From a virus (taxonomy: Duplodnaviria; Caudoviricetes), in IMG/VR virus record IMGVR_UViG_3300041964_000029, positions 1,850 to 65,849 of that record: DNA of 64,000 nucleotides, one strand, 5' to 3'. Of this stretch, positions 389-63,262 are shown one piece after another; positions within the stretch are counted from its first letter, which is position 1, and every line of letters begins with the position of its first letter. Position numbers and translations under genes: made by a program. Below the pieces are notes generated by a model. The model was not told the DNA's origin, searched no databases, and worked only from the letters and a program-made list of their open reading frames with translations.

Positions 389-408
389 TTGTTAAAGAGT
401 CTTTAATT

Positions 409-3400
409 ATGTCTGATACAGTCTTAAAGTTTAGTACATCTGGTTTAAGAGAAACTATAGCAGATGTTAACAAATTAGCAGACTCACAAAAGCAACTTGA
501 AAAATTTCTCAAAGATGCTGCAAAAGCTTATCAGGCACAGGGTTTAAGTGTAGAAGAGGCTACGAGAAAAGCCAAAGATTATGCTGATAGTAATGGTATA
601 ACAGCAAAATCTTTTCAGCAATTAACAGCCGAACAAAAAAAGGCTGTAGAAGCTGCAAAACAACAGACACAAGCACAAAAAGAATTAGAAGCAGCTAAAA
701 AAGCAACACAGATACAATCTGAAAAAGAATTTGCAACAAATTCTAAGTTAAGCCAGCAAAAAGTTAAAGAGTCTTTAATTGCTCAAAGTCAAGCACAAAA
801 GGAGTTAACAGCATCTCAGAAGGCTCAACAGGTAGAAGCTGAGAAGATTTTTCAGACTAACGCCAAGCTGTCTGCTCAGAAGCTAAAGGAAGAGATAGCA
901 GCACAGGCACAGGCAGAGAAAGATCTAGCTGCTGCTCAGAAGGTTCAACAGGTAGAAGCTGAGAAGATTTTTCAGACTAACGCCAAGCTGTCTGCTCAGA
1001 AGCTAAAGGAAGAGATAGCAGCACAGGCACAGGCAGAGAAAGATCTAGCTGCTGCTCAGAAGGTTCAACAGGTAGAAGCTGAGAAGATTTTTCAGACTAA
1101 CGCCAAGCTGTCTGCTCAGAAGCTAAAGGAAGAGATAGCAGCACAGGCACAGGCAGAGAAAGATCTAGCTGCTGCTCAGAAGGTTCAACAGGTAGAAGCT
1201 GAGAAGATTTTTCAGACTAACGCCAAGCTGTCTGCTCAGAAGCTAAAGGAAGAGATAGCAGCACAGGCACAGGCAGAGAAAGATCTAGCTGCTGCTCAGA
1301 AGGTTCAACAGGTAGAAGCTGAGAAAATTTTTCAGACTAACGCCAAGCTGTCTGCTCAGAAGCTAAAGGAAGAGATAGCAGCACAGGCACAGGCAGAGAA
1401 AGATCTAGCTGCTGCTCAGAAGGCTCAACAGGTAGAAGCTGAGAAGATTTTTCAGACTAACGCCAAGCTGTCTGCTCAGAAGCTAAAGGAAGAGATAGCA
1501 GCACAGGCACAGGCAGAGAAAGATCTAGCTGCTGCTCAGAAGGCTCAACAGGTAGAAGCTGAGAAGATTTTTCAGACTAACGCCAAGCTGTCTGCTCAGA
1601 AGCTAAAGGAAGAGATAGCAGCACAGGCACAGGCAGAGAAAGATCTAGCTGCTGCTCAGAAGGCTCAACAGGTAGAAGCTGAGAAGATTTTTCAGACTAA
1701 CGCCAAGCTGTCTGCTCAGAAGCTAAAGGAAGAGATAGCAGCACAGGCACAGGCAGAGAAAGATCTAGCTGCTGCTCAGAAGGCTCAACAGGTAGAAGCT
1801 GAGAAGATTTTTCAGACTAACGCCAAGCTGTCTGCTCAGAAGCTAAAGGAAGAGATAGCAGCACAGGCACAGGCAGAGAAAGATCTAGCTGCTGCTCAGA
1901 AGGCTCAACAGGTAGAAGCTGAGAAGATTTTTCAGACTAACGCAAGCTGTCTGCTCAGAAGCTAAAGGAAGAGATAGCAGCACAGGCACAGGCAGAGAAA
2001 GATCTAGCTGCTGCTCAGAAGGCTCAACAGGTAGAAGCTGAGAAGATTTTTCAGACTAACGCCAAGCTGTCTGCTCAGAAGCTAAAGGAAGAGATAGCAG
2101 CACAGGCACAGGCAGAGAAAGATCTAGCTGCTGCTCAGAAGGCTCAACAGGTAGAAGCTGAGAAGATTTTTCAGACTAACGCCAAGCTGTCTGCTCAGAA
2201 GCTAAAGGAAGAGATAGCAGCACAGGCACAGGCAGAGAAAGATCTAGCTGCTGCTCAGAAGGCTCAACAGGTAGAAGCTGAGAAGATTTTCAGACTAACG
2301 CCAAGCTGTCTGCTCAGAAGCTAAAGGAAGAGATAGCAGCACAGGCACAGGCAGAGAAAGATCTAGCTGCTGCTCAGAAGGCTCAACAGGTAGAAGCTGA
2401 GAAGATTTTTCAGACTAACGCCAAGCTGTCTGCTCAGAAGCTAAAGGAAGAGATAGCAGCACAGGCACAGGCAGAGAAAGATCTAGCTGCTGCTCAGAAG
2501 GCTCAACAGGTAGAAGCTGAGAAGATTTTTCAGACTAACGCCAAGCTGTCTGCTCAGAAGCTAAAGGAAGAGATAGCAGCACAGGCACAGGCAGAGAAAG
2601 ATCTAGCTGCTGCTCAGAAGGCTCAACAGGTAGAAGCTGAGAAGATTTTTCAGACTAACGCCAAGCTGTCTGCTCAGAAGCTAAAGGAAGAGATAGCAGC
2701 ACAGGCACAGGCAGAGAAAGATCTAGCTGCTGCTCAGAAGGCTCAACAGGTAGAAGCTGAGAAGATTTTTCAGACTAACGCCAAGCTGTCTGCTCAGAAG
2801 CTAAAGGAAGAGATAGCAGCACAGGCACAGGCAGAGAAAGATCTAGCTGCTGCTCAGAAGGCTCAACAGGTAGAAGCTGAGAAGATTTTTCAGACTAACG
2901 CCAAGCTGTCTGCTCAGAAGCTAAAGGAAGAGATAGCAGCACAGGCACAGGCAGAGAAAGATCTAGCTGCTGCTCAGAAGGCTCAACAGGTAGAAGCTGA
3001 GAAGATTTTTCAGACTAACGCCAAGCTGTCTGCTCAGAAGCTAAAGGAAGAGATAGCAGCACAGGCACAGGCAGAGAAAGATCTAGCTGCTGCTCAGAAG
3101 GCTCAACAGGTAGAAGCTGAGAAGATTTTTCAGACTAACGCCAAGCTGTCTGCTCAGAAGCTAAAGGAAGAGATAGCAGCACAGGCACAGGCAGAGAAAG
3201 ATCTAGCTGCTGCTCAGAAGGCTCAACAGGTAGAAGCTGAGAAGATTTTTCAGACTAACGCCAAGCTGTCTGCTCAGAAGCTAAAGGAAGAGATAGCAGC
3301 ACAGGCACAGGCAGAGAAAGATCTAGCTGCTGCTCAGAAGGCTCAACAGGTAGAAGCTGAGAAGATTTTTCAGACTAACGCCAAGCTGTCTGCTCAGAAG

Positions 3401-10448: not shown

Positions 10449-12413
10449 TTAATCAGGATCAACTATATCAGCCATATTTAATGGGTATAGTTTTTTGCGT
10501 CGTTCATCCACATTATTAATAATTCTCTGAGATACTTTAGAATCCCGATCATCATTTGCAGCAGAAACAATTCTACCAGTAATTATAATATTCTCATCTT
10601 TAGCGTCTTTTGTAGATGAATGTTTTTTATCATACGCTTTTTGCAATTCCTTAATTTCTTCCATATTTGTTTCATATAATCCACCAATAAAAGATTCTGG
10701 CATAGTAGCTAAATAAAGTTTTTTAGCTTCCATCAAATCATTTACACCAATGATGTATTTTTTTTCATCAAATTTTCCATCAATCCATTGATCGATAACA
10801 AAAATTTTATTGGATTCTAAATTAGTACCAATATAAACGTCAGCAGCCATTTTATCTGCTGCAATAGTTTTTTCAATATGACCATAAGCACCAAGTAACA
10901 TTTTCCCGTGACGCAACTGAAACGGAAAATATTGGATAGCAATATTTAAGCCATTCCATTTAATTTTTTTCTGTGCCCTAGTTGCATCGTCACTTGTGAA
11001 AGAGTCTTTAATGATTCCTGTCTGTGAGGCTCTTAAACCGTTGTTTGGTGTTTCAGGTGTCAATGCACCAACTTCAGGTTGAGAAGGCATTAAAGACGCT
11101 TTAATGGGTACCCTACCAGGAATCATAAGCGGTTGTTCAGGTACAACAATAACAGATCCTAGATCGACACCCTCTTTTAAGGATTTTGCAACGTCTACAG
11201 GTGTTACAGCTTGAGTACCAATATATATTTGGGCTGTTTCAGCTTTTGTTTTTTCTACTGCTGATCTTTCACTTTCAGTTAATTGTAAAATGCTGTGATG
11301 TTCTATTTCATATTTTTCACTATCTTCAATACTTAAACCTAGTAGAAGATAATCAATAAGTTTGTATAGATTTGGATTCCAATCTGATACTTTTTTAGTA
11401 TCAACATAATCTGCCCATTGTCTTTCATCACCACGATCAACACTTTCAGAATCCGATTTAGATCCTGATAATCCAGATTTAGAGGCAGAAGAATTAAATA
11501 ATTTTGTGTAAGGTGTATCAGTCCTAGAGGCTAAAACTTTTTTAATATGTTCAGCAGCATTGATCACACCATCATAATTAGTTGTTAAGTTACTTACCTC
11601 TTCACCCATCTGCAAGAGAAGAGTTTTATGTAAGTTCCAACTATAATTCATTTGTCTAGATCTTTCTGCCAGTTGATCTCGTCCTTTTTGTGTTTTGCTT
11701 AGTTCTGTTAACTCTGCAATTTTGATCACAATTCTACTAAACTTTTCAACAGTTGAGGCGATCGCTGTATCAGTACGATCTAGATTTTTTAACGCTTCAT
11801 AGCATCTAACTAATACCGATATACCCCAATATTTATTCCTTCGCCATTGTCTTTTAGTTAATGGTTTAATACCATAAAACGGTAATATTCTAGATGCATG
11901 AATTGGTTCATCTGTAAATTTCAAACGATAATATAAAGGTTTAAGATATGTTTTAGATTGAGGATTTTTGTCTATTGAATCTACTTTTAATTCACCTGTT
12001 GAACCACCTTCTAAAATTGTGTAATAAAGTGGATCTCTAGCATATAGTTCAATCGGTTCACTTAAAGAGCCTTTAGCACCGATCAAGATGCCAGATCCGC
12101 CAACTAACCTAGCAATTTTAGAGGCATCTATAAAATGTTGAATAATGTTATTAACTCGGTCTTGTAAATATCCATTTATTTCAGCGTTAGGATATTTAAT
12201 TGTTGGTTTGTTTTGCCCCATAGATTGAGGCAATAGATCGATAACATTTGCTGCAAATGTATTTGTATCATACAAAGATTCAAAAATTTCTGTATAACGA
12301 TTGTATCCGTTTAAGCTGGCAGATTCAGGTATACCGTAAGTTTCAGATCCTAAGCTTAAACCTCTAACCATATCTAGATAGTTAGAATCATTTTGCAATC
12401 CTGTATCAGTCAT
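10449..12413 (-). CDS. portal protein (DUF1073/HI1409-like) with C-terminal inorganic-pyrophosphatase-like domain
   Basis: ARLVGGSGIL, IHASRIL, YWGISVL, DTPYTKLF motifs; tail YGHI..T..D....DVYIG...IFVIDQ...FDEKK. Confidence 0.8.
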   Translation of the reverse strand: MTDTGLQNDSNYLDMVRGLSLGSETYGIPESASLNGYNRYTEIFESLYDTNTFAANVIDLLPQSMGQNKPTIKYPNAEINGYLQDRVNNIIQHFIDASKIARLVGGSGILIGAKGSLSEPIELYARDPLYYTILEGGSTGELKVDSIDKNPQSKTYLKPLYYRLKFTDEPIHASRILPFYGIKPLTKRQWRRNKYWGISVLVRCYEALKNLDRTDTAIASTVEKFSRIVIKIAELTELSKTQKGRDQLAERSRQMNYSWNLHKTLLLQMGEEVSNLTTNYDGVINAAEHIKKVLASRTDTPYTKLFNSSASKSGLSGSKSDSESVDRGDERQWADYVDTKKVSDWNPNLYKLIDYLLLGLSIEDSEKYEIEHHSILQLTESERSAVEKTKAETAQIYIGTQAVTPVDVAKSLKEGVDLGSVIVVPEQPLMIPGRVPIKASLMPSQPEVGALTPETPNNGLRASQTGIIKDSFTSDDATRAQKKIKWNGLNIAIQYFPFQLRHGKMLLGAYGHIEKTIAADKMAADVYIGTNLESNKIFVIDQWIDGKFDEKKYIIGVNDLMEAKKLYLATMPESFIGGLYETNMEEIKELQKAYDKKHSSTKDAKDENIIITGRIVSAANDDRDSKVSQRIINNVDERRKKLYPLNMADIVDPD

Positions 12414-12601
12414 ACTTTTTTAATATCTAATGTTTTACAAATGAGTATTAATAATTGCGGGTTAATCCCTCTCTCACCACGTTCTATTCGTGTAATCAAG
12501 CTAGGATGAACATTTGTTTTTATAGCTAGGTAATATCGTGTATAGCTGCATTTTAAGCGATGCATTCTAACAACTTCACCTAAGTCTTTTCTACCTGTCA
12601 T
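12410..12601 (-). CDS. XRE-family HTH regulator
   Basis: LAIKTNVHPSLITRIERGERG HTH pattern; overlaps the portal start (ATGA). Confidence 0.75.
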   Translation of the reverse strand: MTGRKDLGEVVRMHRLKCSYTRYYLAIKTNVHPSLITRIERGERGINPQLLILICKTLDIKKV

Positions 12602-23818: not shown

Positions 23819-23955
23819 GATGATTCCTGTTGGCTCCGGTGTAGTTTGTTTTCTCTTGTCTTTACCAAGTATAAGCTAAAGACTCTTTAATCGTTCACTA
23901 TTTTAGAAAAGAACTGTCACACACTCGCTATGTGACAGTTCTTTTTTTTCTATTC

Positions 23956-24165
23956 TTAAATTACTGCAACTGTAGCGCGTGTAGAAATTTGTCCAGCAAT
24001 TCTATAAGCCTTATCAATGTGTAATGTAATAGCTTTTGTTTTATCGCGGCAAAAATGAAATCCGTTAAATTCTTGCTCTGAATCCAATTCATTACACAGG
24101 TAGAAATTTTTGCCCCAAAGTTCTTTGTTCCAAGTCAGTGATGTAAATAAAATTCTAGCTTGCAT
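23956..24165 (-). CDS. hypothetical early protein (start revised to the ATG after the RBS)
   Basis: CCGGAG-N-ATG; the MVKTRE extension comes from the repeat. Confidence 0.65.
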   Translation of the reverse strand: MQARILFTSLTWNKELWGKNFYLCNELDSEQEFNGFHFCRDKTKAITLHIDKAYRIAGQISTRATVAVI

Positions 24166-24288
24166 TGTTTTCGGCTCCGGTGTAATTTCTCTTGTCTTCA
24201 CCAAGTATAGTCTAAAGACTCTTTAATCGTCCACTGTTTTAGAAAAGAACTGTCACACACTCGCTATGTGACAGTTCACTAGTTGAGC

Positions 24289-24714
24289 CTATGCCCAATT
24301 ACGAACAATGATTTGAGCAGGATTAACAGCCCTACGCTGTTCTAAAAAGTATTCTTGCTCTAAAGCGTTCAAAGCAGCCTGAATCGTAGCATAGCTTAAG
24401 CCTGTAACCGTGTGTAGCGCTTGCATGACTGGATCACTTAGATAGCTGCTATCATCTGCTTTAAGACTTTTTAAGACGGTCTTAATCACTTCTTTGGTGT
24501 CAACGTTCCAAGCTTCAGTAATATCACAAACAACATTCTTTTTAATGCGTCCAGTTTGCTCCATCAATTGCCAGATTTTAGAAGCATATTTTTTCTCAAC
24601 ATTTACCGAGCAGACCATCACATCTAAAAAAGTTTTTTTAGTTATGGTTGAACCTGTTGAAAGAAAGCTAAATGAAGCAGCAGAAGTGAAGTTGTCAACA
24701 GTTAAAGTAGTCAT
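24289..24714 (-). CDS. hypothetical early protein (possibly winged-helix)
   Basis: 141 aa between two repeat units. Confidence 0.7.
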   Translation of the reverse strand: MTTLTVDNFTSAASFSFLSTGSTITKKTFLDVMVCSVNVEKKYASKIWQLMEQTGRIKKNVVCDITEAWNVDTKEVIKTVLKSLKADDSSYLSDPVMQALHTVTGLSYATIQAALNALEQEYFLEQRRAVNPAQIIVRNWA

Positions 24715-24836
24715 TGTTTTTGGCTCCGGTGTTTTCTCTTGTCTTCACCAAGTATAGGTTAAAGACTCTTTAATCGTCCACTGTTTTAGAAAAGAACTGT
24801 CACACACTCGCTATATGACAGTTCAGCGATCGCCGT

Positions 24837-25184
24837 TTACTTTGTTGCTAAAATTTTACCAATAACCGTGTAGCGTCTTAATGTCATTGCTGAGAAATTT
24901 CTTCTTTTGTAATACTCAGCCCGATCTAATTCGCATAGTAACGGCTGATCAGCCGTTATCTTCTGCATAGCAATCCAGAGGATAAATCGACAGTTACAGC
25001 TACTCATTAATAAGCCTATGCCTTCATATCGATCTAACAGCCGTTTGTTATAATCACCCTGTAACCATCGCTTCATTGACAAATATGAACTATTCGATTC
25101 ATAAGAATCACCAACAATTCGTTTAACTAAGTACTTAGGATCTGTCAAATCTTCTACTGTCGTTTTTGCTGCTGTAAGGCTCAT
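24837..25184 (-). CDS. hypothetical early protein
   Basis: CCGGAG RBS. Confidence 0.65.
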   Translation of the reverse strand: MSLTAAKTTVEDLTDPKYLVKRIVGDSYESNSSYLSMKRWLQGDYNKRLLDRYEGIGLLMSSCNCRFILWIAMQKITADQPLLCELDRAEYYKRRNFSAMTLRRYTVIGKILATK

Positions 25185-25262
25185 TACTTGCTCCGGTGTA
25201 AACTGTACGGTTAACTTGATTCAGATACCTTGTAGGGGCATATATGCCCCTATCCTCAAACG

Positions 25263-25511
25263 TTAACGGTAAACATCTAACCCTTCTAACTGCTGACCAG
25301 CTTCTAAGATTTTACCATTGATCAATTTTTCCTCTAATCGTTGCAGTAGTCTAGAGGTGTCATCATCAAAAGGTGAAAAATCATTAGTTTCTAGATTAAG
25401 GACTGAACAATTTTCACCTGTAGAAACAACTGTTAATTTACTTGAAAGAACTTCAGGATTACCGTTAACAGCAGATAGGAAACGATTAAGATCAACAACT
25501 GACACTTGCAT
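25263..25511 (-). CDS. hypothetical early protein
   Basis: Behind a degenerate promoter unit; followed by a hairpin near 25232. Confidence 0.65.
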   Translation of the reverse strand: MQVSVVDLNRFLSAVNGNPEVLSSKLTVVSTGENCSVLNLETNDFSPFDDDTSRLLQRLEEKLINGKILEAGQQLEGLDVYR

Positions 25512-25572
25512 GATTTTTGAGCCTCTAAATTTTTTCCGTCTTTACCAAGTCTAGTCTAAAGGTTCTTTAATG

Positions 25573-25821
25573 TCAAGAGATTAGACCTAATTCTTTTAAC
25601 TCCTGATTAAGTGCTATTGAACAAGAATCAAAATCCGGAAAATTTACAGCACCAGTACGGCGGATTAATGTTTCATATTCTGGAGGACGTTTAAGAAATT
25701 CTAAAACACCTGTACTTAAATTATACTGAGCCTCACGCAAAATGATATTATCGCTGTCTAATTCAAAAATAAAAACCTCTTTAGCTTTAACAGAAATACT
25801 AAAATCGAAAACAGTACCCAT
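25573..25821 (-). CDS. hypothetical protein
   Basis: 82-aa ORF, co-oriented with neighbours. Confidence 0.55.
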   Translation of the reverse strand: MGTVFDFSISVKAKEVFIFELDSDNIILREAQYNLSTGVLEFLKRPPEYETLIRRTGAVNFPDFDSCSIALNQELKELGLIS

Positions 25822-25960
25822 CTATTGAACCAATAAACTATATAAATATTCTACCACATATATAAGAAAAGACAGGCAGAATAAAATCTACCTGTCTTGT
25901 TAACACCGGATGTTGGTCTGCTAGTCCCAACTGTTTTAACCTTTTCAGGTAAGCTAATTT

Positions 25961-26173
25961 TTAAGACTTCGGATCCATTCGGTAGAGAATCTGATCTTTT
26001 GTTTCGCTTATTTCTGCCTCTAGAGTTTTCTGACCTTCTAAGGCTATTGCAGCAGCACCAACCATTGATCGTTTTGTAGCCTTAGAATACAAACGGTGAT
26101 ATGCTTCTTTTTTCTGGTAGAGGCTGTATAGATGATCTATCAGTTGTTCGTTAGTCAGTAGAGATAGCATCAT
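25961..26173 (-). CDS. hypothetical coiled-coil protein
   Basis: AGGAG RBS; overlaps the upstream gene. Confidence 0.6.
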   Translation of the reverse strand: MMLSLLTNEQLIDHLYSLYQKKEAYHRLYSKATKRSMVGAAAIALEGQKTLEAEISETKDQILYRMDPKS

Positions 26174-26504
26174 TTCTCCTAATACGGATTTTTTTGTCAG
26201 CTTGTTTAGGTGTCAGGTTATACAATTGCATATATTTCTGCTCAATCTGCTTAACTAATGGTGTCAGCTTAAAAGCCAATTCAAAAATTTCAACAGGTGC
26301 AGAAATTTTTATATTTGATTTACCGATTTTTCCTCCAACAACTACTTTGATTAAATCTGAGATTACATCATCAACATCAAAGATAATATACCCATCTGCG
26401 ATGTGTTGCAAAATCTCGAATGATTCCTGTGTAACACTTTCTAAAGTTGTCTTAATCTCGTTAGTGTCAGTGTTGAGTGTTGCAGCCCGATTAGTGTTAG
26501 CCAT
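26151..26504 (-). CDS. hypothetical early protein
   Basis: Behind a promoter unit. Confidence 0.65.
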   Translation of the reverse strand: MANTNRAATLNTDTNEIKTTLESVTQESFEILQHIADGYIIFDVDDVISDLIKVVVGGKIGKSNIKISAPVEIFELAFKLTPLVKQIEQKYMQLYNLTPKQADKKIRIRRNDAISTD

Positions 26505-26560
26505 TTTTTGCTCCGGTGTAATTTGTTCTTAACCAAGTATAATCTGAAGAGTCTTTAACG

Positions 26561-26779
26561 TCAAGTAGATTTAGACTCTAATTTTTCGGCATATTCTTTT
26601 GCCTCTTTTTGACTGTTCAGCACACTAGCAACCTTCACACCATCTTTTTCTAGATTGTATGCCTGTGGAGTATTACAACCCATAAACAGGGGCACTATTT
26701 TATAACGTCCACATCTACTTAAAACCCAACCTTGCCTACTCATAGACCATTTAACTAACGTATCCTGTTTACGTGGCAT
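26561..26779 (-). CDS. hypothetical early protein
   Basis: CCGGAGG RBS. Confidence 0.65.
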   Translation of the reverse strand: MPRKQDTLVKWSMSRQGWVLSRCGRYKIVPLFMGCNTPQAYNLEKDGVKVASVLNSQKEAKEYAEKLESKST

Positions 26780-26808
26780 AATGTCCTCCGGTGTTTTTCC
26801 TCTATCGG

Positions 26809-27123
26809 TTAACGTGTATAAGCTGTTAGATCAATTTTGCTGGAAGCGATATATTTGTCGATTTCAGTTTGTAGATTTTTTGCTGCTAATTTTTCCTCTG
26901 TATTTTGACGATTAAAACTAAAGTTATCAACAGCATGATCAATCATCGCTTTAAGCTTTGCTAATTCTTCATGATACGAATAAGTTGGTCTTGCGATAAC
27001 TGAGAAAATATTTTCGAGTGATTCAATATGTGAAATATTCCATTGATTATCGAATATCGCATAACCGTTATAATCTAACATTTCGATCGCGATAGATACG
27101 GCTGATTCTCTGAATGATTTCAT
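26809..27123 (-). CDS. hypothetical early protein
   Basis: Behind a TTGACA/TATACT promoter unit. Confidence 0.7.
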   Translation of the reverse strand: MKSFRESAVSIAIEMLDYNGYAIFDNQWNISHIESLENIFSVIARPTYSYHEELAKLKAMIDHAVDNFSFNRQNTEEKLAAKNLQTEIDKYIASSKIDLTAYTR

Positions 27124-27225
27124 GATTTTTGGCTCCGGTGTTTTCTCCTGTCTTCACCAAGTATAGGCTAAAGACTCTTTAACTGTCAAGATATTAGTTA
27201 AAGAATCTTTAGAGAGTATTAATAC

Positions 27226-27462
27226 TTAAAATTTAGATTCTAAGCAAAAATAATGTGATTCATCTGTTTGACTATAGCCAACAATAGCACGCGGATTATG
27301 ATATTTACCATTCGTCTGATACTTAGCAAATATTCTTAAGATTGCTAATTCAGAACCAAAGGCATAATAACAACCTGAAATAATTTCAACTCTGATAGAT
27401 TCTTTAGCAATATCCTCAAAAGTTTTTTGTACTTTAACTTCGTTAGTGGTTTGATTAGACAT
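27226..27462 (-). CDS. hypothetical early protein (start revised)
   Basis: ATG after CCGGAG RBS. Confidence 0.7.
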   Translation of the reverse strand: MSNQTTNEVKVQKTFEDIAKESIRVEIISGCYYAFGSELAILRIFAKYQTNGKYHNPRAIVGYSQTDESHYFCLESKF

Positions 27463-27586
27463 TGTTTTTGGCTCCGGTGTGTTTTCTCTTGTCTTCACCA
27501 AGTATAAGCTAAAGACTCTTTAACTGTCTACTGTTTTTGAAAAGAACTGTCACACACTCGCTATGTGACAGTTCAGCGATCGCTGT

Positions 27587-28093
27587 TTACTTTGTCCAAG
27601 CTTCACTATGAATAATTGCTTTCATCGCAGCAGCATCCGTTACACCTTCTAACCAATTTTTCTGTAAGGCTACATAATCAACTAAGGATGAAACACCAAA
27701 GAAAGTCCGAGCGTATGCAATGGTATGTTTACAGGATTTTATATCATTGATCCGTAACCCGTTAGGACTGCCGTATGATTTACAGTTACAATGTACAGGG
27801 TTAGACTGCCATCCTGTAGTAGTTGTACCATCATTTTTAAATTCAACGCTTTTAGAGGCTACTATAGCCCGTTGTACTAATTTTCTTAATAGTGCATGAA
27901 CACTCAGAAAAGTAGAGCATTTTGAACGCTTGCCATTCGCCACAGCTAAGTATGTAACCTGATAAGCACCATTTTTGCAGACCATAGAACTAATGACAAC
28001 TACAGCACCAAGTTCATGTTGATCCATAATCAATTCTCCGAGCGTGGTATTGGAAAAGTAGTTGGTGCTGATGACAGGCTTTTGATTAGACAT
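27587..28093 (-). CDS. SWIM zinc-finger protein
   Basis: CNC...CKH (CxC-Xn-CxH) motif. Confidence 0.7.
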   Translation of the reverse strand: MSNQKPVISTNYFSNTTLGELIMDQHELGAVVVISSMVCKNGAYQVTYLAVANGKRSKCSTFLSVHALLRKLVQRAIVASKSVEFKNDGTTTTGWQSNPVHCNCKSYGSPNGLRINDIKSCKHTIAYARTFFGVSSLVDYVALQKNWLEGVTDAAAMKAIIHSEAWTK

Positions 28094-28214
28094 TGTTTTT
28101 GGCTCCGGTGTAGTTTGTTTTCTCTTGTCTTCACCAAGTATAAGCTAAAGACTCTTTAACTGTCTACTGTTTTTGAAAAGAACTGTCATACACTCGCTAT
28201 GTGACAGTTCACCC

Positions 28215-28403
28215 CTACTTAATGATATTGCTGTTATCCTGATCCACGTTGCTTAAAATTTTGTCCTCTTCCTCTAATACCTCAATCATTGAAGCATATC
28301 TTGGTTCAACTTCTGCAACACGTTCTAAATCTTCTTTTGAAAGATCTTCACCATTTTCAAACTGTTCAATCAGTTCATCATCAGTCTTTTTAGATTGGCT
28401 CAT
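28215..28403 (-). CDS. small acidic hypothetical protein
   Basis: 62 aa, D/E-rich; GGAG RBS. Confidence 0.6.
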   Translation of the reverse strand: MSQSKKTDDELIEQFENGEDLSKEDLERVAEVEPRYASMIEVLEEEDKILSNVDQDNSNIIK

Positions 28404-28471
28404 TGTTTTAGCTCCAATGTTTTAGTTGATTGAACTGTCACATAGTTAACTATGTGACAGTTCAACAGCTT

Positions 28472-33391: not shown

Positions 33392-33396
33392 CTTAC

Positions 33397-34037: not shown

Positions 34038-34065
34038 GCTACTTTAGAGAAAACCGGATCAAATG

Positions 34066-35646: not shown

Positions 35647-35756
35647 TGTTTTTGTCCTTTAAGTTTGAGGTGTTTTGTTTTCTTGTCTCTTCACTTAATA
35701 TAAGTGATCTAGTTTTAGAAGTCAAGCTATTTTAGAAAATAGTTTTTGAAGACTCT

Positions 35757-36167
35757 TTAACACAGATCACCCACTTTAAGCACACGTTCAACTTGGTGTA
35801 ACTCAGCAGCCGTTATAAATGTCGATCCACCTCTCTTGGCTGCATTATAACATAATTGATAGACTTTACCAATTGGATGTTGTGAAATTTTACTAACTCT
35901 AATCATCATTAGAGCAACAGCAATATTCAAATCATCACTACTCACCTTCATAGCCAACCATAAAGGCAGATGCATTAGTTCTAACATCTGATAGACGTAC
36001 AACGAATTACAGTTGAAATGTTCAACACATTTACTAACGGCTGCTGTATCGGCATGAATGCCAGTACTACCAACACGCATATAACATTCGGAATAGTACC
36101 GATCATAAGCATCACTAACTTTTTGAGCAAAAATTAAAAGATCTGTTTTCTGTTTTGTCTCTGTCAT
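35757..36167 (-). CDS. ParB-type HTH-only paralogue
   Basis: AAVSKCVEHFNCNSLYVYQMLELMHLPLWL....L....A..M pattern. Confidence 0.6.
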   Translation of the reverse strand: MTETKQKTDLLIFAQKVSDAYDRYYSECYMRVGSTGIHADTAAVSKCVEHFNCNSLYVYQMLELMHLPLWLAMKVSSDDLNIAVALMMIRVSKISQHPIGKVYQLCYNAAKRGGSTFITAAELHQVERVLKVGDLC

Positions 36168-36289
36168 TTGTCTATGATTCCTGTGTGAAGGTGTTCATCT
36201 ATTAATATGCCACAGGTTAAGCCAAAAGTAAAGAGTCTTTAGAAAATAAATCCTAAAGACTCTTTAAGCGATCGCTTACCATAAGCGGT

Positions 36290-36706
36290 TTAATTTGTCA
36301 AGCCTCTCTTAACGATTTGAAAACTTGCCATTGTAGGATTTTTTTCGCCTCTACTTTTTGATAAATCTAAGGTGATATTAAAAACATCTCTCAACACAGC
36401 ATCCTTAGAATCTGCATAACGTATCATATCTAATGCTAATGTTGGATGGATTACACAGGATTGAATTTCTTTTACAATCCAATATGGCATATCTAAAATT
36501 TTTAACGCTAATCCAACTTCAAACTGTGAAATATTGAAAGTTGCTGCACAGTGTTTAGAAGCTGTCAGTGTAGCGTGTTTATTAGCACTTAGACCAGATT
36601 TACCAGACTCTAACAATTCATCAAAAGTTTTAGCGTATGTATGACTATACGCTTGATAAATTTCTTCAGCTTGATCAAGTAGATTACTAATTGTTGTGCT
36701 GTTCAT
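36290..36706 (-). CDS. ParB-type HTH-only paralogue (start revised)
   Basis: ESGKS...A...A..HCAATFNISQFEVGLALKILDMPYWI pattern. Confidence 0.6.
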   Translation of the reverse strand: MNSTTISNLLDQAEEIYQAYSHTYAKTFDELLESGKSGLSANKHATLTASKHCAATFNISQFEVGLALKILDMPYWIVKEIQSCVIHPTLALDMIRYADSKDAVLRDVFNITLDLSKSRGEKNPTMASFQIVKRGLTN

Positions 36707-36777
36707 TTGTTGTTTTTTCCAGTGTGGTTTTTGTCTTGTCTTCACCAAGCATAGCTTAAAGGCTCTTTAGCGTCAAG

Positions 36778-37203
36778 CTACATACAATTTTCTATATCCT
36801 GATCAGTCATGCTCAGATACTTGGAAACTAATTCTAATCTAGAATCAAATTTACCAATATTGTAACAATTCCATTGCCATTTATTACCCACAGTTTTATT
36901 AATACTGTGCATTAATATTGTCTCTTTACCTTCATTATCGCTCATAACAGCATCAAATAATATTGGTGTAGTGCCATTATACATTGACGGACGAAAATAA
37001 ATTTTTAATTCATCCACAACTATTGGTTTTTTCTCAGATCTTATGATTGTCTGCTTTTTAACTTTTGCTTTTATACCTCTCTTTTCTCTGTTCAACTGTT
37101 GATAAATTTTTTGTGGATCAATTTTGAGTTTGGCTGCAATATCTTTAACCGTCCCTATTTCACCAGCATATTCAACTATTTTACCTTGTCCTAACAACGG
37201 CAT
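36778..37203 (-). CDS. hypothetical protein with N-terminal HTH
   Basis: TVKDIAAKLKIDPQKIYQQL. Confidence 0.6.
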   Translation of the reverse strand: MPLLGQGKIVEYAGEIGTVKDIAAKLKIDPQKIYQQLNREKRGIKAKVKKQTIIRSEKKPIVVDELKIYFRPSMYNGTTPILFDAVMSDNEGKETILMHSINKTVGNKWQWNCYNIGKFDSRLELVSKYLSMTDQDIENCM

Positions 37204-37277
37204 AATTTTCTCCGGTTTGTTTTGCTCTTGTCTTCACCAATGCTAGCTTAAAGGCTCTTTAGCGTCAAGCTATCCTC

Positions 37278-37481
37278 TTAATGTTTTGTGTATAACCAAT
37301 CTAGTTTTGGGTTAGCTCTAAGAAAGTTTTCTTTTGTAAAAATAATGTTACCATGTCTATTAACAATTATATCCGGTTTGTGTCCAGCGATCGCAAGAGT
37401 ATTAAAAATTTCTATAGCATTATTACGATTATCCGCTAAAGATAAAACAGATAAATGATTCATAATCTTAAATTTTGCCAT
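37278..37481 (-). CDS. hypothetical early protein
   Basis: AGGAG RBS behind a promoter-only unit. Confidence 0.6.
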   Translation of the reverse strand: MAKFKIMNHLSVLSLADNRNNAIEIFNTLAIAGHKPDIIVNRHGNIIFTKENFLRANPKLDWLYTKH

Positions 37482-37545
37482 TTGTCTATTCTCCTGTATG
37501 GTGTAGTTTTACCAAGCATAGCTTAAAGGCTCTTTAATCGTCAAG

Positions 37546-39424: not shown

Positions 39425-39425
39425 T

Positions 39426-39917: not shown

Positions 39918-40001
39918 GATCTAACATCCGGTAAAGTGTTTATACGTTTGAGATACTATCAAGCTGTTAAAGACTCTTTAACAGCTTGATAAGGGCAGAT
40001 C

Positions 40002-56758: not shown

Positions 56759-58792
56759 ATGGCTCTTTTAGATCTATCAGTTAAAAATTTTACGCTACAT
56801 ATCGGTGATTTTGAGATCACCGATTTTTTAACTGCTTTCACTATTTCACATCCCAATAGTGAAATTAATCAACAGCTTTTTTGGTCTGGGACTTTTGAAT
56901 TGGCTGTAACTGATAAAGTTTTTAGACAATCTTCAATCTTATCAGAAAGTGATTTTTCTGAAGTTGCTTCACCTTTACGTTGGCGTAGGGGATTGCAAAC
57001 AGTGACATTAACAATTGATGGGTATTTGTTTCCACCTCTGTTAATTGCTGATTATGTTTACGAAAATAGAATTGCTAAAGGCTCTTTAACACAATTAAAT
57101 GATTTATTGTCATTTAGCAGACAGGGTAAAGAAATAGAGGGAACTGCATTCACATTAGGACAACCGATCGCAGATGTAATTAATTCTTTATTTTTAGAAG
57201 CTGGTAAAGTTACAACGGTTGCACACGGTACAGTAGTAGTGGCTGATCAGTCTAAAATTTCGCCTCTACCAGCTTTAACAGGTGTTTTAACTACAAAGCT
57301 AACAACTGATAATCCTATCGCTTTAGCGCAAAATTTGGCAGTAACCAATTGGCATTGGGTATCAATAGCATTAGATGGAAAATTAACGCTGGTAGAACGT
57401 CCTGAATATGGTACACCTATTCTGAGAAGGGCATTCAGTGAAATTAACATAAAACCATTAACTGATAATATCCATTTTGCTGCTGATCAAGTTGTTGTAA
57501 CTGGTAGTAGGGAAGAGGCTAAAAAAGCGGAAGATGCTCCTCCGGTAATAGAGGAAAATGATGATTTTAATGAAGATGGAAAACCGAGAAAAGTTAGAAC
57601 AGAAACTATAGAAACTATTGGATCTGTTTTTGCTGATCTTAAACCTGGTGATGAAACACCATATACTACAGGTGTTAAAACTGTTTTTTATAGATATGCA
57701 GGACGATCAAATGATTCTGCATTTAACCCTAACTTATATGTAAATTTATCAGGTGAAGCAAATTATGAATGCAACCAATATCCAAGTGTGAATAGTGCAG
57801 GTATTGGTGATGTTATTCAAACTATTACAGTAGATGAAATCATAGTTGGTAAATTATTCAAGGATGATTTACCTGAACCAAATGAAGTTCCACCTTTACC
57901 AACAACAGGTAAATTGACTAAAGTTACACACGGTACAATATCACCAGCAGCCGTAAATATTCCGACTAGATTATTGGGTTTTATTATTGGTAATATTAGT
58001 ATAGAAACACCAACAAAAAAAGTTTCGTTTGTTCCATACGGATCAAAATTTTCTGATGTTGATGTTGATTTGAATCGTAAAATTCAATTAACACTAGAAA
58101 GATCTGAAACATTAAGATCTTCAAATAATACTACCTCTGTTATCGAATCTATTAAAGACCCTTTAACAGGTAAAGCATTAAAGCTTGAAGATAGAGTTAA
58201 AGCAGAAGATCAACAGAAAGCACCATTAATTGATTATGAAACAGTACCAATTAGAGGACAATATGACTTAGTACCAAATGGGTACAATACATTTTTGCCG
58301 CAAACTTATACAGAAGACTTTGGCTTTTTACCGGATGATTCCCTTGCATATCCATTAGCTAGAAAGATCGCTATTCGTGAGTTTGCCAGAAGAGATGCAA
58401 AACAATTTTTTATGGAGATGCCTAGAGAATGGGCTACTTTAGGTTTTCCATTTTTTCCCATCTTTGATCTACATGATGGTAGAAGACTTGTAGAAAATCC
58501 CATTATTACCATGTCTAAAAGACAGATGGTTTTTAGCTTCACAGGTGAGAAGTTAGGTGATATAGAATCTGTGATAGAAGCTGATCCGATTATGCCTTAT
58601 ATGCCTGTAGAAGGGCTGAACATCTATATAACGAACAATCTATCGTTAGCGACTGGATCACCTGTTACAAGCCAAATTTTGGCTATTGGTGGTAATCCTC
58701 CATATAGCTTTAGTGCTGATTCCTTGCCAGATGGCTTGAGTATTTCACCAGATGGATTAATTACAGGTGTTCCATCTGTTGCTATCGCTTAA
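56759..58792 (+). CDS. tail hub/baseplate-like structural protein ending in a partial putative-Ig domain
   Basis: C-terminal GGNPPYSF....LPDGLSIS..GLITGVP (He_PIG-like). Confidence 0.6.
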   Translation: MALLDLSVKNFTLHIGDFEITDFLTAFTISHPNSEINQQLFWSGTFELAVTDKVFRQSSILSESDFSEVASPLRWRRGLQTVTLTIDGYLFPPLLIADYVYENRIAKGSLTQLNDLLSFSRQGKEIEGTAFTLGQPIADVINSLFLEAGKVTTVAHGTVVVADQSKISPLPALTGVLTTKLTTDNPIALAQNLAVTNWHWVSIALDGKLTLVERPEYGTPILRRAFSEINIKPLTDNIHFAADQVVVTGSREEAKKAEDAPPVIEENDDFNEDGKPRKVRTETIETIGSVFADLKPGDETPYTTGVKTVFYRYAGRSNDSAFNPNLYVNLSGEANYECNQYPSVNSAGIGDVIQTITVDEIIVGKLFKDDLPEPNEVPPLPTTGKLTKVTHGTISPAAVNIPTRLLGFIIGNISIETPTKKVSFVPYGSKFSDVDVDLNRKIQLTLERSETLRSSNNTTSVIESIKDPLTGKALKLEDRVKAEDQQKAPLIDYETVPIRGQYDLVPNGYNTFLPQTYTEDFGFLPDDSLAYPLARKIAIREFARRDAKQFFMEMPREWATLGFPFFPIFDLHDGRRLVENPIITMSKRQMVFSFTGEKLGDIESVIEADPIMPYMPVEGLNIYITNNLSLATGSPVTSQILAIGGNPPYSFSADSLPDGLSISPDGLITGVPSVAIA

Positions 58793-58804
58793 AGAGTCTT
58801 TAAG

Positions 58805-62973: not shown

Positions 62974-63246
62974 ATGGATGAAGATCTTTTATTTAATATT
63001 GAATCACAACGTTTTTATGATGCAACTAGACAGGTTAAAGCGATTAAAAGTAAACAAGCTAATATTTCAAACATTCCTAAATATATTGATAGAGATAATG
63101 TTAGCGGGTTTAGAAAAGTTGAAACACAAAAAGGAATTATTTTTACACGGTATCGTAGTAATGCACAGTTAAAAACTGATCAAGTGATTCCTGTGGTTAA
63201 TCAATCTAATTTTCAGATTGGTAGTATTGATACAAAACCTAGTTAA
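62974..63246 (+). CDS. hypothetical protein, paralogue of the 61902 N-terminal domain
   Basis: MD...L.NIE.QR..D...Q...I.SK...RD..SG...V..Q.G.I shared. Confidence 0.65.
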   Translation: MDEDLLFNIESQRFYDATRQVKAIKSKQANISNIPKYIDRDNVSGFRKVETQKGIIFTRYRSNAQLKTDQVIPVVNQSNFQIGSIDTKPS

Positions 63247-63262
63247 TTAAAGAGTCTTTAAC

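What the first reader, a model, noticed from the sequence alone, without database searches (positions are those of the whole stretch)
392..63261. Genome-wide 15-bp palindrome (about 55 copies) alongside a phage ParB-like protein: candidate KorB/O_B-like global control or partition system
Seen: TTAAAGA(G/C)TCTTTAA, a perfect inverted repeat around a central G/C, occurs about once per kb in three contexts. (i) It fills most of the 18-bp spacer between -35 and -10 of the early promoters. (ii) It sits at gene junctions, often supplying the TAA stop (14132, 47611, 48446, 56364, 58790) or lying a few nt before an ATG (409, 8900, 16133, 43511, 63263). (iii) It lies inside CDSs, usually read as KESL/KDSL (TMP x4, protease x2, TerS, primase x2, PolB, 49542, 60804, 61902), so unrelated proteins have been shaped to keep the site. 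Known: RK2 KorB, a ParB-family CTPase, binds an odd-length palindrome TTTAGC(G/C)GCTAAA at 12 sites that are promoter-proximal, distal and intragenic. Inference: this phage coats its whole genome with a site-specific protein for early-gene shut-off, compaction or segregation, at much higher site density than RK2. The best candidate binder is the ParB-like protein at 34066-35646.
Basis: partly seen in the sequence, partly recalled or inferred. Interest (0 to 1): 0.92.

Follow-up and report, generated by a model that had tools for sequence, protein, structure and literature searches.

The report
Phage-wide palindrome array, probable ParB/KorB docking sites
An uncultured soil-crust cyanophage repeats one 15-letter DNA palindrome about every 1,000 bases, in its early promoters, between genes and inside genes, most likely as docking sites for its own ParB/KorB-type DNA-binding protein.

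Summary
TTAAAGA(G/C)TCTTTAA occurs 30 times exactly, 59 times at <=1 mismatch and 75 times at <=2, against 0 to 0.75 expected. Eighteen copies fill the 18-nt spacer of near-identical terminator-promoter cassettes. Twenty-two lie at other junctions and 19 lie inside genes, against 1.2 expected under synonymous shuffling. The intragenic copies fill the gaps between junction copies, so spacing is far more even than chance. The motif is not a cyanobacterial repeat: at most 1 copy in each of 401 genomes.

The 526-aa protein has no Pfam hit. Its AF2 model (pLDDT 91.8) best matches RK2 KorB, then Noc and ParB. Three HTH-only paralogues sit beside it.

Four cultured Nostocales phages (A1, Elbi, YongM, Dfl-JY23) carry a related but different odd palindrome and share an identical ParB-like recognition helix. 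N1 has no palindrome, only decayed remnants, and a diverged helix. Binding is untested. A 63-aa Cro-type HTH protein is a rival binder.

The A-1 motif was noted in 2016 without this link (PMC4916379). This scan has flagged the same arrangement in other phages. Verdict: new variant of a known kind; first reading partly supported.

The parts
392..63261 (.). Array of the 15-bp odd palindrome TTAAAGA(G/C)TCTTTAA: 30 exact, 59 at <=1 mismatch, 75 at <=2 mismatches
   Evidence: Exact copies start at 392, 764, 4842, 8882, 10438, 14131, 15041, 16116, 18116, 20549, 24759, 28703, 30199, 30955, 32491, 32809, 39967, 41259, 41955, 43494, 44103, 45359, 46265, 47610, 50824, 53333, 56363, 58789, 60928, 63247. 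The conserved block is 15 bp with only a weak R/Y preference at the flanks.
23876..37537 (-). Eighteen early terminator-promoter-operator cassettes. Each has a 13-bp-stem hairpin, a -35 (TTGACG/TGGACG/TAGACA), one base, the palindrome, two bases, TATACT and a conserved 5'UTR
   Evidence: Palindrome starts: 23876, 24212, 24759, 26544, 27168, 27509, 28145, 28703, 29282, 29783, 30199, 32491, 32809, 33636, 33983, 36756, 37248, 37523. The consensus scan finds 17 of the 18.
34066..35646 (-). 526-aa ParB/KorB-fold protein (N-domain, HTH, GS linker, helical region, acidic tail); leading candidate binder
   Evidence: No Pfam hit; matches phrog_35656, function unknown. The family has 34 representatives. 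The family profile hits Noc 7ol9 (E 6e-4) and KorB 1r71 (E 1.5e-3). The AF2 model has pLDDT 91.8. Foldseek's top hit is KorB 8qa9 at E 7.9e-7.
32837..33391 (-). 184-aa HTH-only paralogue with a nearly identical recognition helix
   Evidence: blastp against the 526-aa protein gives 42% identity over 115 aa, E 4e-26.
35757..36167 (-). 136-aa HTH-only paralogue with a diverged helix
   Evidence: E 9e-7 to the 526-aa protein.
36290..36748 (-). 152-aa HTH-only paralogue with a diverged helix
   Evidence: E 5e-9 to the 526-aa protein.
35697..35760 (-). The ParB-like gene's own promoter-like site (TTGACT-17-TATATT). Its palindrome copy (35746-35760, 1 mismatch) lies 20 nt upstream of the -35, not in the spacer
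12410..12601 (-). 63-aa Cro/C1-type HTH protein; rival candidate binder
   Evidence: Pfam HTH_3, E 2.1e-8, above the family cut-off. No homologue found in the A-1 group.
36778..37203 (-). 141-aa protein with a weak HTH_28 match
   Evidence: Pfam E 7.8e-4, below the family cut-off.
39960..39988 (.). Extended 29-bp perfect palindrome built around one copy (CAAGCTG-palindrome-CAGCTTG)
   Evidence: The 31-nt RNA that I folded (39959-39989, the 29-bp palindrome plus one base on each side) gives -17.5 kcal/mol, against -0.3 for the bare 15-mer.
58789..58803 (+). Copy whose TAA separates two ORFs lying in the same reading frame (56759-58792 and 58805-60103)
   Evidence: The offset between the stop and the next start is a multiple of three.

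Best explanation
The palindromes are docking sites on double-stranded DNA for a dimeric, phage-encoded protein. The most likely binder is the 526-aa ParB/KorB-fold protein, possibly acting together or in competition with its 184-aa HTH-only paralogue.

At 18 early cassettes the site fills the -35/-10 spacer. Occupancy there would exclude host RNA polymerase and shut the early genes off together.

The remaining roughly 40 sites, at gene junctions and written into tolerant parts of genes, keep the distance between neighbouring sites below about 2.8 kb. This suggests a protein that must reach or cover the whole chromosome from many loading points, as KorB does from its O_B sites.

Shown: the enrichment, the contexts, the DNA-level selection, the even spacing, the fold, and the tracking of helix with site across relatives. 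Inferred: the binding itself, who binds, repression, and any sliding or spreading.
For: 1. Enrichment and DNA-level selection.
2. Spacer position in 18 cassettes.
3. Symmetry: no significant orientation bias outside the promoter paralogues, the centre is G or C in 72 of 75 sites, and the hairpin is negligible.
4. Even spacing. With junction sites held fixed, the 19 CDS sites give a CV of 0.616 against a null mean of 0.879; 0 of 5000 randomisations were as even. The largest gap is 2786 bp against a null mean of 4336 (P = 0.008).
5. CDS copies lie in variable tails or linkers, or arise by gapless substitution.
6. Fold: the AF2 model best matches KorB 8qa9 (E 7.9e-7), then Noc, ParB and Spo0J, and the family profile hits Noc and KorB.
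7. The window shares only a replication module with the A-1 group, and the ParB-like protein is the only member of it in which I saw an HTH; of the other six shared proteins, Pfam gave a weak RusA hit, DUF3850 and no hit for primase and the 409-aa protein, and helicase and PolB were scanned against PHROGs only. That group has a related odd palindrome, identical at 5 of 7 half-site positions with the same G/C centre.
8. Elbi, YongM, A1 and Dfl-JY23 have the same palindrome and an identical recognition helix although the proteins are only 66-68% identical overall. N1 has 0 sites at <=3 mismatches, decayed remnants at syntenic spots, and a diverged helix containing Pro-Gly.
9. The LuxR-type HTH protein, which is also N1-divergent, varies in its helix among the four palindrome-bearing phages. 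The small ELBI_24 protein is 92% identical in N1.
10. The motif occurs at most once in each of 401 cyanobacterial genomes, so a host factor is unlikely.
Against: - There are no binding data.
- Pfam finds nothing in the 526-aa protein. Among 33 family members only 1 matches ParB_N, 2 match KorB and 1 matches HTH_ParB, all weakly.
- The GERRxR box reads GNSRVR (Glu to Asn, first Arg to Ser), so a CTP-driven clamp is doubtful.
- The tracking of helix with site rests on three independent lineages. ParB-like ranks only 10 of 75 Elbi proteins for N1-specific divergence; primase ranks first.
- N1 keeps an intact gene without any sites.
- No gene with a plausible DNA-binding role is present in Elbi and YongM but missing from N1; the only real Elbi+YongM-specific gene is a 651-aa phosphatase.
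- The window encodes other possible binders: HTH_3 at 12410-12601 and many ORFans with no family match.
- In the A-1 group only 39 of 258 site flanks have an exact TTGACA within 70 nt, so most sites there are not promoter operators.
Confidence: 0.5

Rival explanations
1. The sites are operators or roadblock sites for a different phage-encoded dimeric regulator, for example the 63-aa Cro/C1-type HTH protein (12410-12601), the weak HTH_28 protein (36778-37203), or one of the ORFans. They would act like a symmetric version of mycobacteriophage stoperators.
For: HTH_3 scores E 2.1e-8. Small Cro-type dimers classically bind 14-18-bp palindromes with an odd centre (established knowledge, recalled). 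The spacer position is a classical repressor position. Chenard et al. themselves proposed stoperators for the A-1 motif (passages read).
Against: The HTH_3 protein has no detectable homologue in the A-1 group, which has the sister palindrome. Stoperators are asymmetric and oriented with transcription, whereas here orientation is not significant outside the paralogous promoters. This reading gives no reason for gap-filling intragenic sites.
Confidence: 0.2
2. The sites are spacing elements for DNA transactions rather than transcription. They could be recognition or loading sites for the replisome (primase-helicase), for recombination-dependent replication, or for condensation before packaging.
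For: The density is about one site per kb, spacing is even in both lineages, and the site is symmetric and so usable on either strand. Primase is the protein most divergent in palindrome-less N1 (rank 1 of 75). The shared gene set is a replication module.
Against: To my recollection no primase or packaging system needs a 15-bp palindrome. The exact fit into 18 promoter spacers is not explained. N1 replicates and packages without any such sites.
Confidence: 0.1
3. The palindrome is a self-spreading element or a recombination linker (REP/MITE-like, or boundary sequences for module exchange) with no dedicated binding protein.
For: Copies lie at gene boundaries. One copy separates two ORFs in the same frame. 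A strain variant replaces 38519-38746, starting 7 nt from a copy. A 2.6-kb deletion joins two cassettes. In N1 several syntenic gaps are shorter by about the length of the element.
Against: Among the 70 ORFs I scanned against Pfam (91 were called), none matched a transposase or RAYT. One CDS copy arose by gapless substitution (primase residue 545). The 15-mer cannot form a stable hairpin. The deletion joint shares 34 nt, so it is cassette homology and not the palindrome. N1 also shows decay by substitution. Gap-filling placement needs selection.
Confidence: 0.07
4. The element works in RNA, as a hairpin, a processing site or a start-associated translation signal.
For: Eight copies end 0-3 nt before a start codon. 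GAG at the centre lies 9-10 nt before those starts. There is a G excess on the sense strand overall.
Against: The fold energy is -0.3 kcal/mol. The G excess is not significant outside the promoter paralogues. Eighteen copies lie in promoter spacers upstream of the likely transcript start. The 19 CDS copies have no start codon nearby.
Confidence: 0.04
5. The motif is a target tied to DNA modification, since its centre GASTC lies within GANTC and the phage encodes an N6_N4 and a D12 methyltransferase, or it is a site for a host protein.
For: The methyltransferases are at 55473-56366 and 47627-48448. The N6_N4 gene sits next to the ParB-like gene in YongM, A1 and Dfl-JY23.
Against: All 15 bp are conserved, not just 5. 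Elbi has the palindrome but no annotated or detectable N6_N4 methylase. In the A-1 type the GAGTC is off-centre. The motif is at background level in 401 cyanobacterial genomes.
Confidence: 0.04

Closest known systems
KorB and its O_B operators on IncP plasmid RK2 (PMC11790492: abstract, passages and section 4 read)
   Same: Both involve a ParB-family fold with an HTH, and KorB is the best structural match. Both have sites near promoters, far from promoters and inside genes. In the paper O_B lies 4-10 bp or 45 to more than 1000 bp upstream of targets. In the A-1-type phages 8 sites lie 3-7 bp before a TTGACA. Small HTH partners are present here too, as three paralogues.
   Different: The density here is about 1 site per kb, against a handful on RK2 (the figure of 12 is recalled, not seen in what I read). 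Eighteen sites lie inside the promoter spacer. The GERRxR box is altered. None of the 70 ORFs I scanned against Pfam matched ParA. The element is a tailed-phage contig with no integrase or ParA match among the scanned ORFs, not a plasmid; its life style is not known. No KorA homologue was identified.
Repeated motif of Nostoc phage A-1 reported by Chenard et al. 2016 (PMC4916379: passages read; figure not seen)
   Same: [quoted passage not shown] This fits the TTAGAGT(S)ACTCTAA palindrome that I find 33 times at <=1 mismatch in A1. The authors proposed promoters or stoperators.
   Different: The sequence differs at 2 of 7 half-site positions. In the A-1 group about 88% of copies are intergenic, whereas 19 of 59 copies here are intragenic. 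The paper draws no link to the ParB-like gene (0 occurrences of 'ParB').
17-bp dyad repeat of Cluster O mycobacteriophages (PMC4351075: passages read)
   Same: Corndog has 34 copies of an invariant inverted repeat spread over a phage genome, 14 between ORFs and the rest in genes. The authors predict a dimeric binder and a role other than transcription initiation. A ParB-like domain protein is encoded.
   Different: That repeat has a 3-bp spacer, a different sequence and a different host phylum, and the sites are not in promoter spacers. The authors did not assign the ParB-like protein to the sites.
Stoperators of Cluster A mycobacteriophages (PMC9283540: search listing and start of abstract only)
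   Same: One repressor binds an early promoter operator and also many dispersed sites across the phage genome.
   Different: Stoperators are asymmetric, bound by a monomer and orientation-dependent. Here the site is a perfect palindrome with no robust orientation bias. No immunity repressor or integrase was found.

Membership tests
ParB/KorB/Noc family (ParB N-terminal fold plus HTH) | ParB/Srx-type N-terminal fold | tested here: met
   The AF2 model of residues 1-270 has pLDDT 91.8 and pTM 0.82. Foldseek finds 18 PDB chains at E <= 0.001. The 14 of these printed in the output are all KorB, Noc, ParB or pNOB8 ParB chains, with KorB 8qa9 on top.
ParB/KorB/Noc family (ParB N-terminal fold plus HTH) | Central helix-turn-helix DNA-binding domain after the N-domain | tested here: met
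   Family profile positions 154-281 align to the KorB operator-binding domain 1r71 (E 1.5e-3), and positions 172-233 align to the Noc HTH. Foldseek alignments span about 250 columns.
ParB/KorB/Noc family (ParB N-terminal fold plus HTH) | Canonical GERRxR (box II) nucleotide-binding and catalytic motif | tested here: not met
   The aligned box is G-N-S-R-V-R. G93 and R96 are invariant and N94 is nearly so across 33 sequences. The Glu and the first Arg are replaced. Whether any NTP is bound cannot be told here.
ParB/KorB/Noc family (ParB N-terminal fold plus HTH) | Recognition by curated sequence models (Pfam ParB_N, HTH_ParB, KorB) | tested here: not met
   The window protein has 0 families at E <= 0.01. 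Among 33 members, ParB_N matches 1, KorB 2 and HTH_ParB 1, with best E-values of 1.5e-3 to 7e-3.
ParB/KorB/Noc family (ParB N-terminal fold plus HTH) | ParA-type partner ATPase (for a partition system) | tested here: not met
   No ParA/CbiA-type hit appeared among the 70 ORFs scanned with Pfam. Some structural ORFs were not scanned, and the record is estimated 87% complete.
ParB/KorB/Noc family (ParB N-terminal fold plus HTH) | Sequence-specific binding to a palindromic site (parS, O_B or NBS) | not testable with these tools
   The only evidence is indirect: tracking of helix with site across six phages.
KorB-type global operator network | One palindromic operator reused at promoter-proximal, distal and intragenic positions | tested here: met
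   Of the 59 sites at <=1 mismatch, 15 are spacer sites, 25 are other junction or intergenic sites and 19 are CDS sites; the full set of 18 spacer sites includes 3 copies with 2 mismatches.
KorB-type global operator network | Clamp-locking small partner (KorA or TrbA) | not tested
   Three HTH-only paralogues exist, but no interaction was examined.
Stoperators (Cluster A mycobacteriophages) | Asymmetric site whose orientation follows the direction of transcription | tested here: not met
   The site is a perfect palindrome. Outside the promoter paralogues the centre is 28 G: 16 C on the sense strand, p = 0.096 at <=1 mismatch, and 31:23, p = 0.34 at <=2 mismatches.
REP/MITE-like mobile palindromes | Stable hairpin, intergenic only, with an associated transposase | tested here: not met
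   The fold energy is -0.3 kcal/mol. Nineteen copies are in CDS. No transposase family was hit among the 70 ORFs scanned against Pfam.

The most novel reading that the evidence does not exclude
A ParB/KorB-type protein with no partner ATPase, lacking the catalytic Glu of the GERR box, is loaded at about 60 evenly spaced palindromes. It thereby covers the whole chromosome of what may be a lytic cyanophage (life style not established). From the promoter-spacer copies it switches off about 18 early transcription units at once. The rest of the lattice would serve a genome-wide purpose, such as shielding, compaction or marking of phage DNA. The system is ancient in Nostocales phages, changes specificity together with its sites, and has been lost in N-1, where the sites are decaying.
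Probability: 0.3. Interest if true: 0.8.

Novelty: new variant of a known kind. Interest (0 to 1): 0.7.

Why it matters
If the ParB/KorB-fold protein binds these sites, this phage would show a plasmid-style global silencing and coating system reused by a virus, at roughly one site per kilobase. The selection is strong enough to write the peptide K-E/D-S-L into unrelated proteins.

It would also give a testable function to the unexplained repeats reported in Nostoc phage A-1 (2016) and in Cluster O mycobacteriophages (2015). The cultured pair A-1 (sites present) and N-1 (sites lost), which infect the same Nostoc strain according to the abstract listed, offers a natural experiment.

My searches found no paper that links phage-wide palindromes to a ParB-type protein. 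Earlier agents of this scan reached the same reading on other phages. Those are unchecked notes, not independent support.

Tried and rejected
1. Near relatives were not found. Megablast of 16 kb against cultured phages gave no match. Portal, P0003, P0004 and P0005 searches in viral contigs gave no relatives, and P0003 in metagenome contigs gave none. The cassette pattern in viral contigs gave 0.

2. The search for homologous proteins returned only the query itself.

3. phmmer of the single protein against PDB gave nothing meaningful.

4. No gene with a plausible DNA-binding role is specific to the palindrome-bearing phages. Only a phosphatase is present in Elbi and YongM but missing from N1.

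5. The methyltransferase link is rejected, because Elbi has the sites without that gene.

6. The sense-strand bias of the centre base, as evidence for an RNA role, is rejected after separating out the paralogous promoters.

7. Sequencing runs: no RNA holder is listed. All holders are stored as contigs, so no starts, ends or nicks can be read.

8. The interior loose ends at copies (34530, 39957, 39986 and 29303), I reject as evidence of recombination, and probably 36267 too, whose other flank I did not trace. For four of them the loose letters are the normal flanks of other copies outside the 20-kb stretch I laid (near 53333, 44103, 61978 and 56363). They are short local matches of ordinary contigs.

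9. Only 40 of 90 variant positions were printed, so a test for SNP depletion in sites was not possible. One printed SNP (37529 G>A) turns a 1-mismatch copy into the perfect palindrome.

10. Complex prediction was not used. 'No support' would say nothing, and DNA cannot be a partner.

11. Supplements are closed. I did not see Fig. 2 or any supplement of PMC4916379, so the identity of their A-1 motif with my palindrome is inferred from their wording.


Full report
WHAT THE DNA IS

The window is bases 1850-65849 of a 65,849-bp linear IMG/VR virus record, estimated 87% complete. It encodes a portal, a prohead protease, a major head protein, a tail fibre, a helicase and a B-family polymerase. It also encodes a D12 and an N6_N4 DNA methyltransferase and a long tape-measure gene.

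Near-identical DNA is held by six metagenome runs labelled biocrust, from two studies. The cyanobacterial octamer GCGATCGC occurs 17 times. The only cultured phages with a homologue of the 526-aa protein infect Nostoc, Anabaena or Dolichospermum: 7 of 7 records. The host is therefore probably a filamentous cyanobacterium. This is inferred.

TTAAAGA(G/C)TCTTTAA occurs as follows.

| Mismatches allowed | Copies in window | Expected from 100 dinucleotide shuffles |
|---|---|---|
| 0 | 30 | 0 |
| <=1 | 59 | not run |
| <=2 | 75 | mean 0.75, maximum 3 |

The conserved block is exactly 15 bp, with only a weak purine/pyrimidine preference in the flanking base. The centre is G or C in 72 of 75 sites.

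Of the 59 sites at <=1 mismatch, 30 are intergenic, 10 overlap a gene end and 19 lie inside coding sequence. About 89% of the window is coding.

PROMOTER COPIES

Eighteen copies sit in a repeated cassette of about 110 nt on the minus strand between 23.8 and 37.5 kb. Each cassette has these parts in order:
- a 13-bp-stem terminator-like hairpin;
- a -35 hexamer (TTGACG, TGGACG or TAGACA);
- one base, the palindrome, then two bases;
- TATACT;
- a conserved leader and ribosome-binding region.

The consensus scan independently lists 17 of the 18 as promoter-like, 14 with an 18-nt spacer and 3 with 17 nt. It also lists six copies of the hairpin as terminator-like. Overall it finds 62 promoter-like sites against 47.9 +/- 6.5 in shuffles, so the scan alone is weak evidence. 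The repetition of the same architecture is the stronger point.

The ParB-like gene's own promoter-like site (TTGACT-17-TATATT) is different. Its palindrome lies 20 nt upstream of the -35, not in the spacer.

JUNCTION AND CODING COPIES

Eight sites end 0-3 nt before a start codon.

Only one reading frame of the palindrome lacks TAA. This explains both the K-E/D-S-L reading inside genes and the frequent use of the motif as a stop codon.

Inside genes the counts at <=1 mismatch are:
- 19 observed;
- 1.22 expected when synonymous codons are shuffled within each gene;
- 0.03 expected when codon order is shuffled.

K[DE]SL occurs 17 times against 1.06 expected, and all 17 are encoded by the motif. 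Selection therefore acts on the nucleotides, and the proteins have accommodated it.

Where homologues allow a check, the coding copies lie in a variable C-terminal tail (PolB residue 621 of 627), in an N-terminal extension absent from homologues (the 409-aa protein), or in a variable linker (primase residue 243). In one case the copy sits in a gapless aligned position (primase residue 545). That points to substitution in place rather than insertion.

SPACING

Sites are more evenly spaced than random. At <=1 mismatch the CV is 0.69 against 0.97 (P about 0.001).

A sharper test fixes the 40 non-coding sites, removes the tape-measure tandem repeat from the coordinates, and places the 19 coding copies at random in coding DNA.

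| Measure | Observed | Null mean | Result |
|---|---|---|---|
| CV of gaps | 0.616 | 0.879 | 0 of 5000 randomisations as even |
| Largest gap | 2786 bp | 4336 bp | P = 0.008 |

The coding copies fill the holes left by long genes. This argues that coverage of the whole chromosome matters, not only promoters.

WHAT THE SITE IS NOT

- It is not a stable hairpin. The 15-mer folds at -0.3 kcal/mol.
- It shows no robust strand polarity. The sense-strand excess of G at the centre (42 of 59) is 14:1 in the paralogous promoters. Elsewhere it is 28:16 (p = 0.096), or 31:23 at <=2 mismatches (p = 0.34).
- It is not a repeat in any of the 401 cyanobacterial genomes searched. Of these, drawn from the class of a Gloeocapsopsis genome, 9 have one copy and none has more. 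The reversed control pattern is at least as frequent. The true host is unknown, so this says 'not found in those searched'.

THE CANDIDATE PROTEIN

The 526-aa product of 34066-35646 has no Pfam hit at E <= 0.01. It matches only a PHROG of unknown function.

A full HMMER search of 1.84 billion representatives finds a small family: 34 proteins at E <= 0.001. A profile built from 33 of them hits these solved structures:
- Noc 7ol9 at E 6e-4, aligning the family's G-N-x-R-x-R with Noc's GERRWR;
- the KorB operator-binding domain 1r71 at E 1.5e-3;
- KorB 8qa8, Spo0J and ParB more weakly.

An AlphaFold model of residues 1-270 built on that alignment has pLDDT 91.8 and pTM 0.82. Its best Foldseek match in the PDB is RK2 KorB 8qa9 (E 7.9e-7, TM 0.52/0.64). 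Noc, CDP-bound ParB, Caulobacter ParB, pNOB8 ParB and Spo0J follow.

Two points weaken the comparison. The catalytic Glu and the first Arg of the GERRxR box are replaced (GNSRVR). No ParA-type partner was found among the 70 ORFs scanned with Pfam.

Three neighbouring ORFs are HTH-only paralogues: 32837-33391, 35757-36167 and 36290-36748. The first has a nearly identical recognition helix (42% identity over 115 aa, E 4e-26).

RELATIVES

The window shares with the A-1/N-1 group of Nostoc myophages only a replication module: RusA, the ParB-like protein, primase, a 409-aa protein, helicase, a DUF3850/ASCH protein and PolB. An N6_N4 methylase is shared with YongM only.

De novo k-mer counts show that four of these phages carry a different odd palindrome, TTAGAGT(G/C)ACTCTAA, usually extended to AATTTTAGAGT(S)ACTCTAAAATT.

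| Phage | Exact | <=1 mismatch | <=2 mismatches | Copies at <=1 mismatch inside a crude ORF | Spacing CV |
|---|---|---|---|---|---|
| Elbi | 27 | 34 | 37 | 4 | 0.58 |
| YongM | 24 | 30 | 32 | 3 | 0.47 |
| A1 | 17 | 33 | 35 | 4 | 0.57 |
| Dfl-JY23 | 14 | 32 | 39 | 5 | 0.53 |

The null CV is about 0.96 in each phage (P <= 0.001).

This palindrome matches the window's motif at 5 of 7 half-site positions and has the same G/C centre. The copies sit next to terminator hairpins built from CCCCGGAGTCA. An exact TTGACA lies within 70 nt on 39 of 258 flanks, a rate of 0.151 against 0.045 at random positions. Eight of these lie 3-7 bp away.

Phage N1 has no such palindrome: 0 at <=3 mismatches, and no other iterated palindrome apart from the host-type octamer. 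Its gene content is almost the same as Elbi's. At syntenic junctions N1 shows either shorter gaps or non-palindromic remnants. For example, a half-site-like TAGA-TCA remains beside the conserved terminator.

HELIX AND SITE TRACK EACH OTHER

| Phage(s) | Palindrome | ParB-like recognition helix |
|---|---|---|
| Elbi, YongM, A1, Dfl-JY23 | TTAGAGT(S)ACTCTAA | identical in all four, though the proteins are 66-68% identical overall |
| N1 | none | different, contains Pro-Gly |
| window | TTAAAGA(S)TCTTTAA | different again |

Two controls favour the ParB-like protein:
- The LuxR-type HTH protein also diverges in N1, but its HTH varies among the four palindrome-bearing phages.
- The small ELBI_24 protein is 92% identical in N1.

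Three limits apply:
- There are only three independent lineages.
- The ParB-like protein ranks 10th of 75 Elbi proteins for N1-specific divergence; primase ranks first.
- The window also encodes a 63-aa Cro-type HTH_3 protein (E 2.1e-8), with no homologue in the A-1 group. I cannot exclude it as the binder.

MECHANISM PROPOSED

A dimeric phage protein docks on the palindrome. The ParB/KorB-fold protein is the most likely binder, perhaps with its 184-aa paralogue.

In the 18 cassettes the site occupies positions about -30 to -16. Occupancy there would block host polymerase and silence the early units together. This is inferred from position.

The other sites, spaced so that no stretch longer than about 2.8 kb is without one, would load or hold the protein along the whole genome. 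KorB is a precedent: it slides from O_B sites to promoters up to 1.5 kb away (PMC11790492: abstract and section 4 read). Whether this protein binds a nucleotide, slides or spreads is unknown.

I put the protein-docking reading as a whole at about 0.75. I put the ParB-like family as the binder at about 0.5.

WHAT IS KNOWN

- Chenard et al. [quoted passage not shown] They suggested promoters or stoperators. The word ParB does not occur in the text (passages read).
- Cluster O mycobacteriophages carry 34 copies of a 17-bp dyad repeat, many of them inside genes, with a predicted dimeric binder and an unassigned ParB-like domain protein (passages read).
- A 2025 survey describes ParB-CTPase folds as common in phages, mostly fused to other domains (passages read).
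- No paper in the library contains either palindrome string.
- Two searches combining phage, ParB and palindrome terms found no paper that links a phage-wide palindrome array to a ParB-type protein.
- This scan's own earlier agents reached the same reading for at least eight other phages. I list them but did not test them, and they are not independent support.

VERDICT

The finding is a real and striking feature. I class it as a new variant of a known kind.

Noticed in passing
window 1900-4790 (inside the tape-measure gene 409-8881): There are about 24 near-perfect tandem copies of a 120-nt (40-aa) unit. A few 1-nt differences between copies break the reading frame, so the ORF list shows a gap at 1966-4813. 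The cause could be an assembly or collapse artefact, or a true length-variable tape measure.
   Followed up: partly
window, 48 copies on both strands; also Elbi, YongM, A1, Dfl-JY23 and N1 genomes: A second iterated word exists. GGAATCA occurs 26 times forward and 22 times reverse in the window, often as CAGGAATCA just before start codons and as TGATTCCTG near gene ends. N1 has 78 copies of CCCCGGAATCA. The A-1-type phages have 73-84 copies of CCCCGGAGTCA, arranged as inverted pairs that form the stems of terminator-like hairpins. This is probably the 11-bp N-1 motif of Chenard et al. Why the terminator stems share one sequence is unexplained.
   Followed up: partly
window 38519-38746 and 27148-29764: Strain variants appear in the metagenome contigs. 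A segment of 226 nt is replaced by 196 other letters in runs X1 and X4, starting 7 nt from a palindrome copy. A 2,615-nt deletion in X5 joins two promoter cassettes through 34 shared letters. A variant haplotype with about 85 differences covers 33684-42480.
   Followed up: partly
window 37529: A G>A difference, present in the X4 and X1 contigs and in one of the X5 contigs there, converts the 1-mismatch copy at 37523-37537 into the perfect palindrome.
   Followed up: no
window 56759-58792 and 58805-60103: Two ORFs lie in the same reading frame and are separated only by the TAA of a palindrome copy plus four codons. I checked the frame only, not the domain.
   Followed up: partly
window 23.8-37.5 kb: The early region is an array of one- or two-gene units, each with its own terminator hairpin, promoter and leader. 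This resembles the mobile promoter-stem-loop cassettes described for T4-type phages (recalled). Nearly all the genes are ORFans by Pfam.
   Followed up: partly
N1 genome (KU234532.1), junctions syntenic with Elbi sites 29324 and 32141: N1 keeps the flanking terminator and promoter sequences. In place of the palindrome it has a non-palindromic stretch that still resembles one half-site. This suggests loss and decay of the sites in N1.
   Followed up: partly
window 52934-53332: There is a stand-alone DUF3850/ASCH-like protein (E 3.5e-19), shared with YongM and Elbi. [quoted passage not shown]
   Followed up: no
window 41952-43510: A stretch of about 1.5 kb, largely non-coding, lies at the point where transcription diverges, with palindrome copies at 41955, 42262 (2 mismatches) and 43494. 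I did not check them.
   Followed up: no
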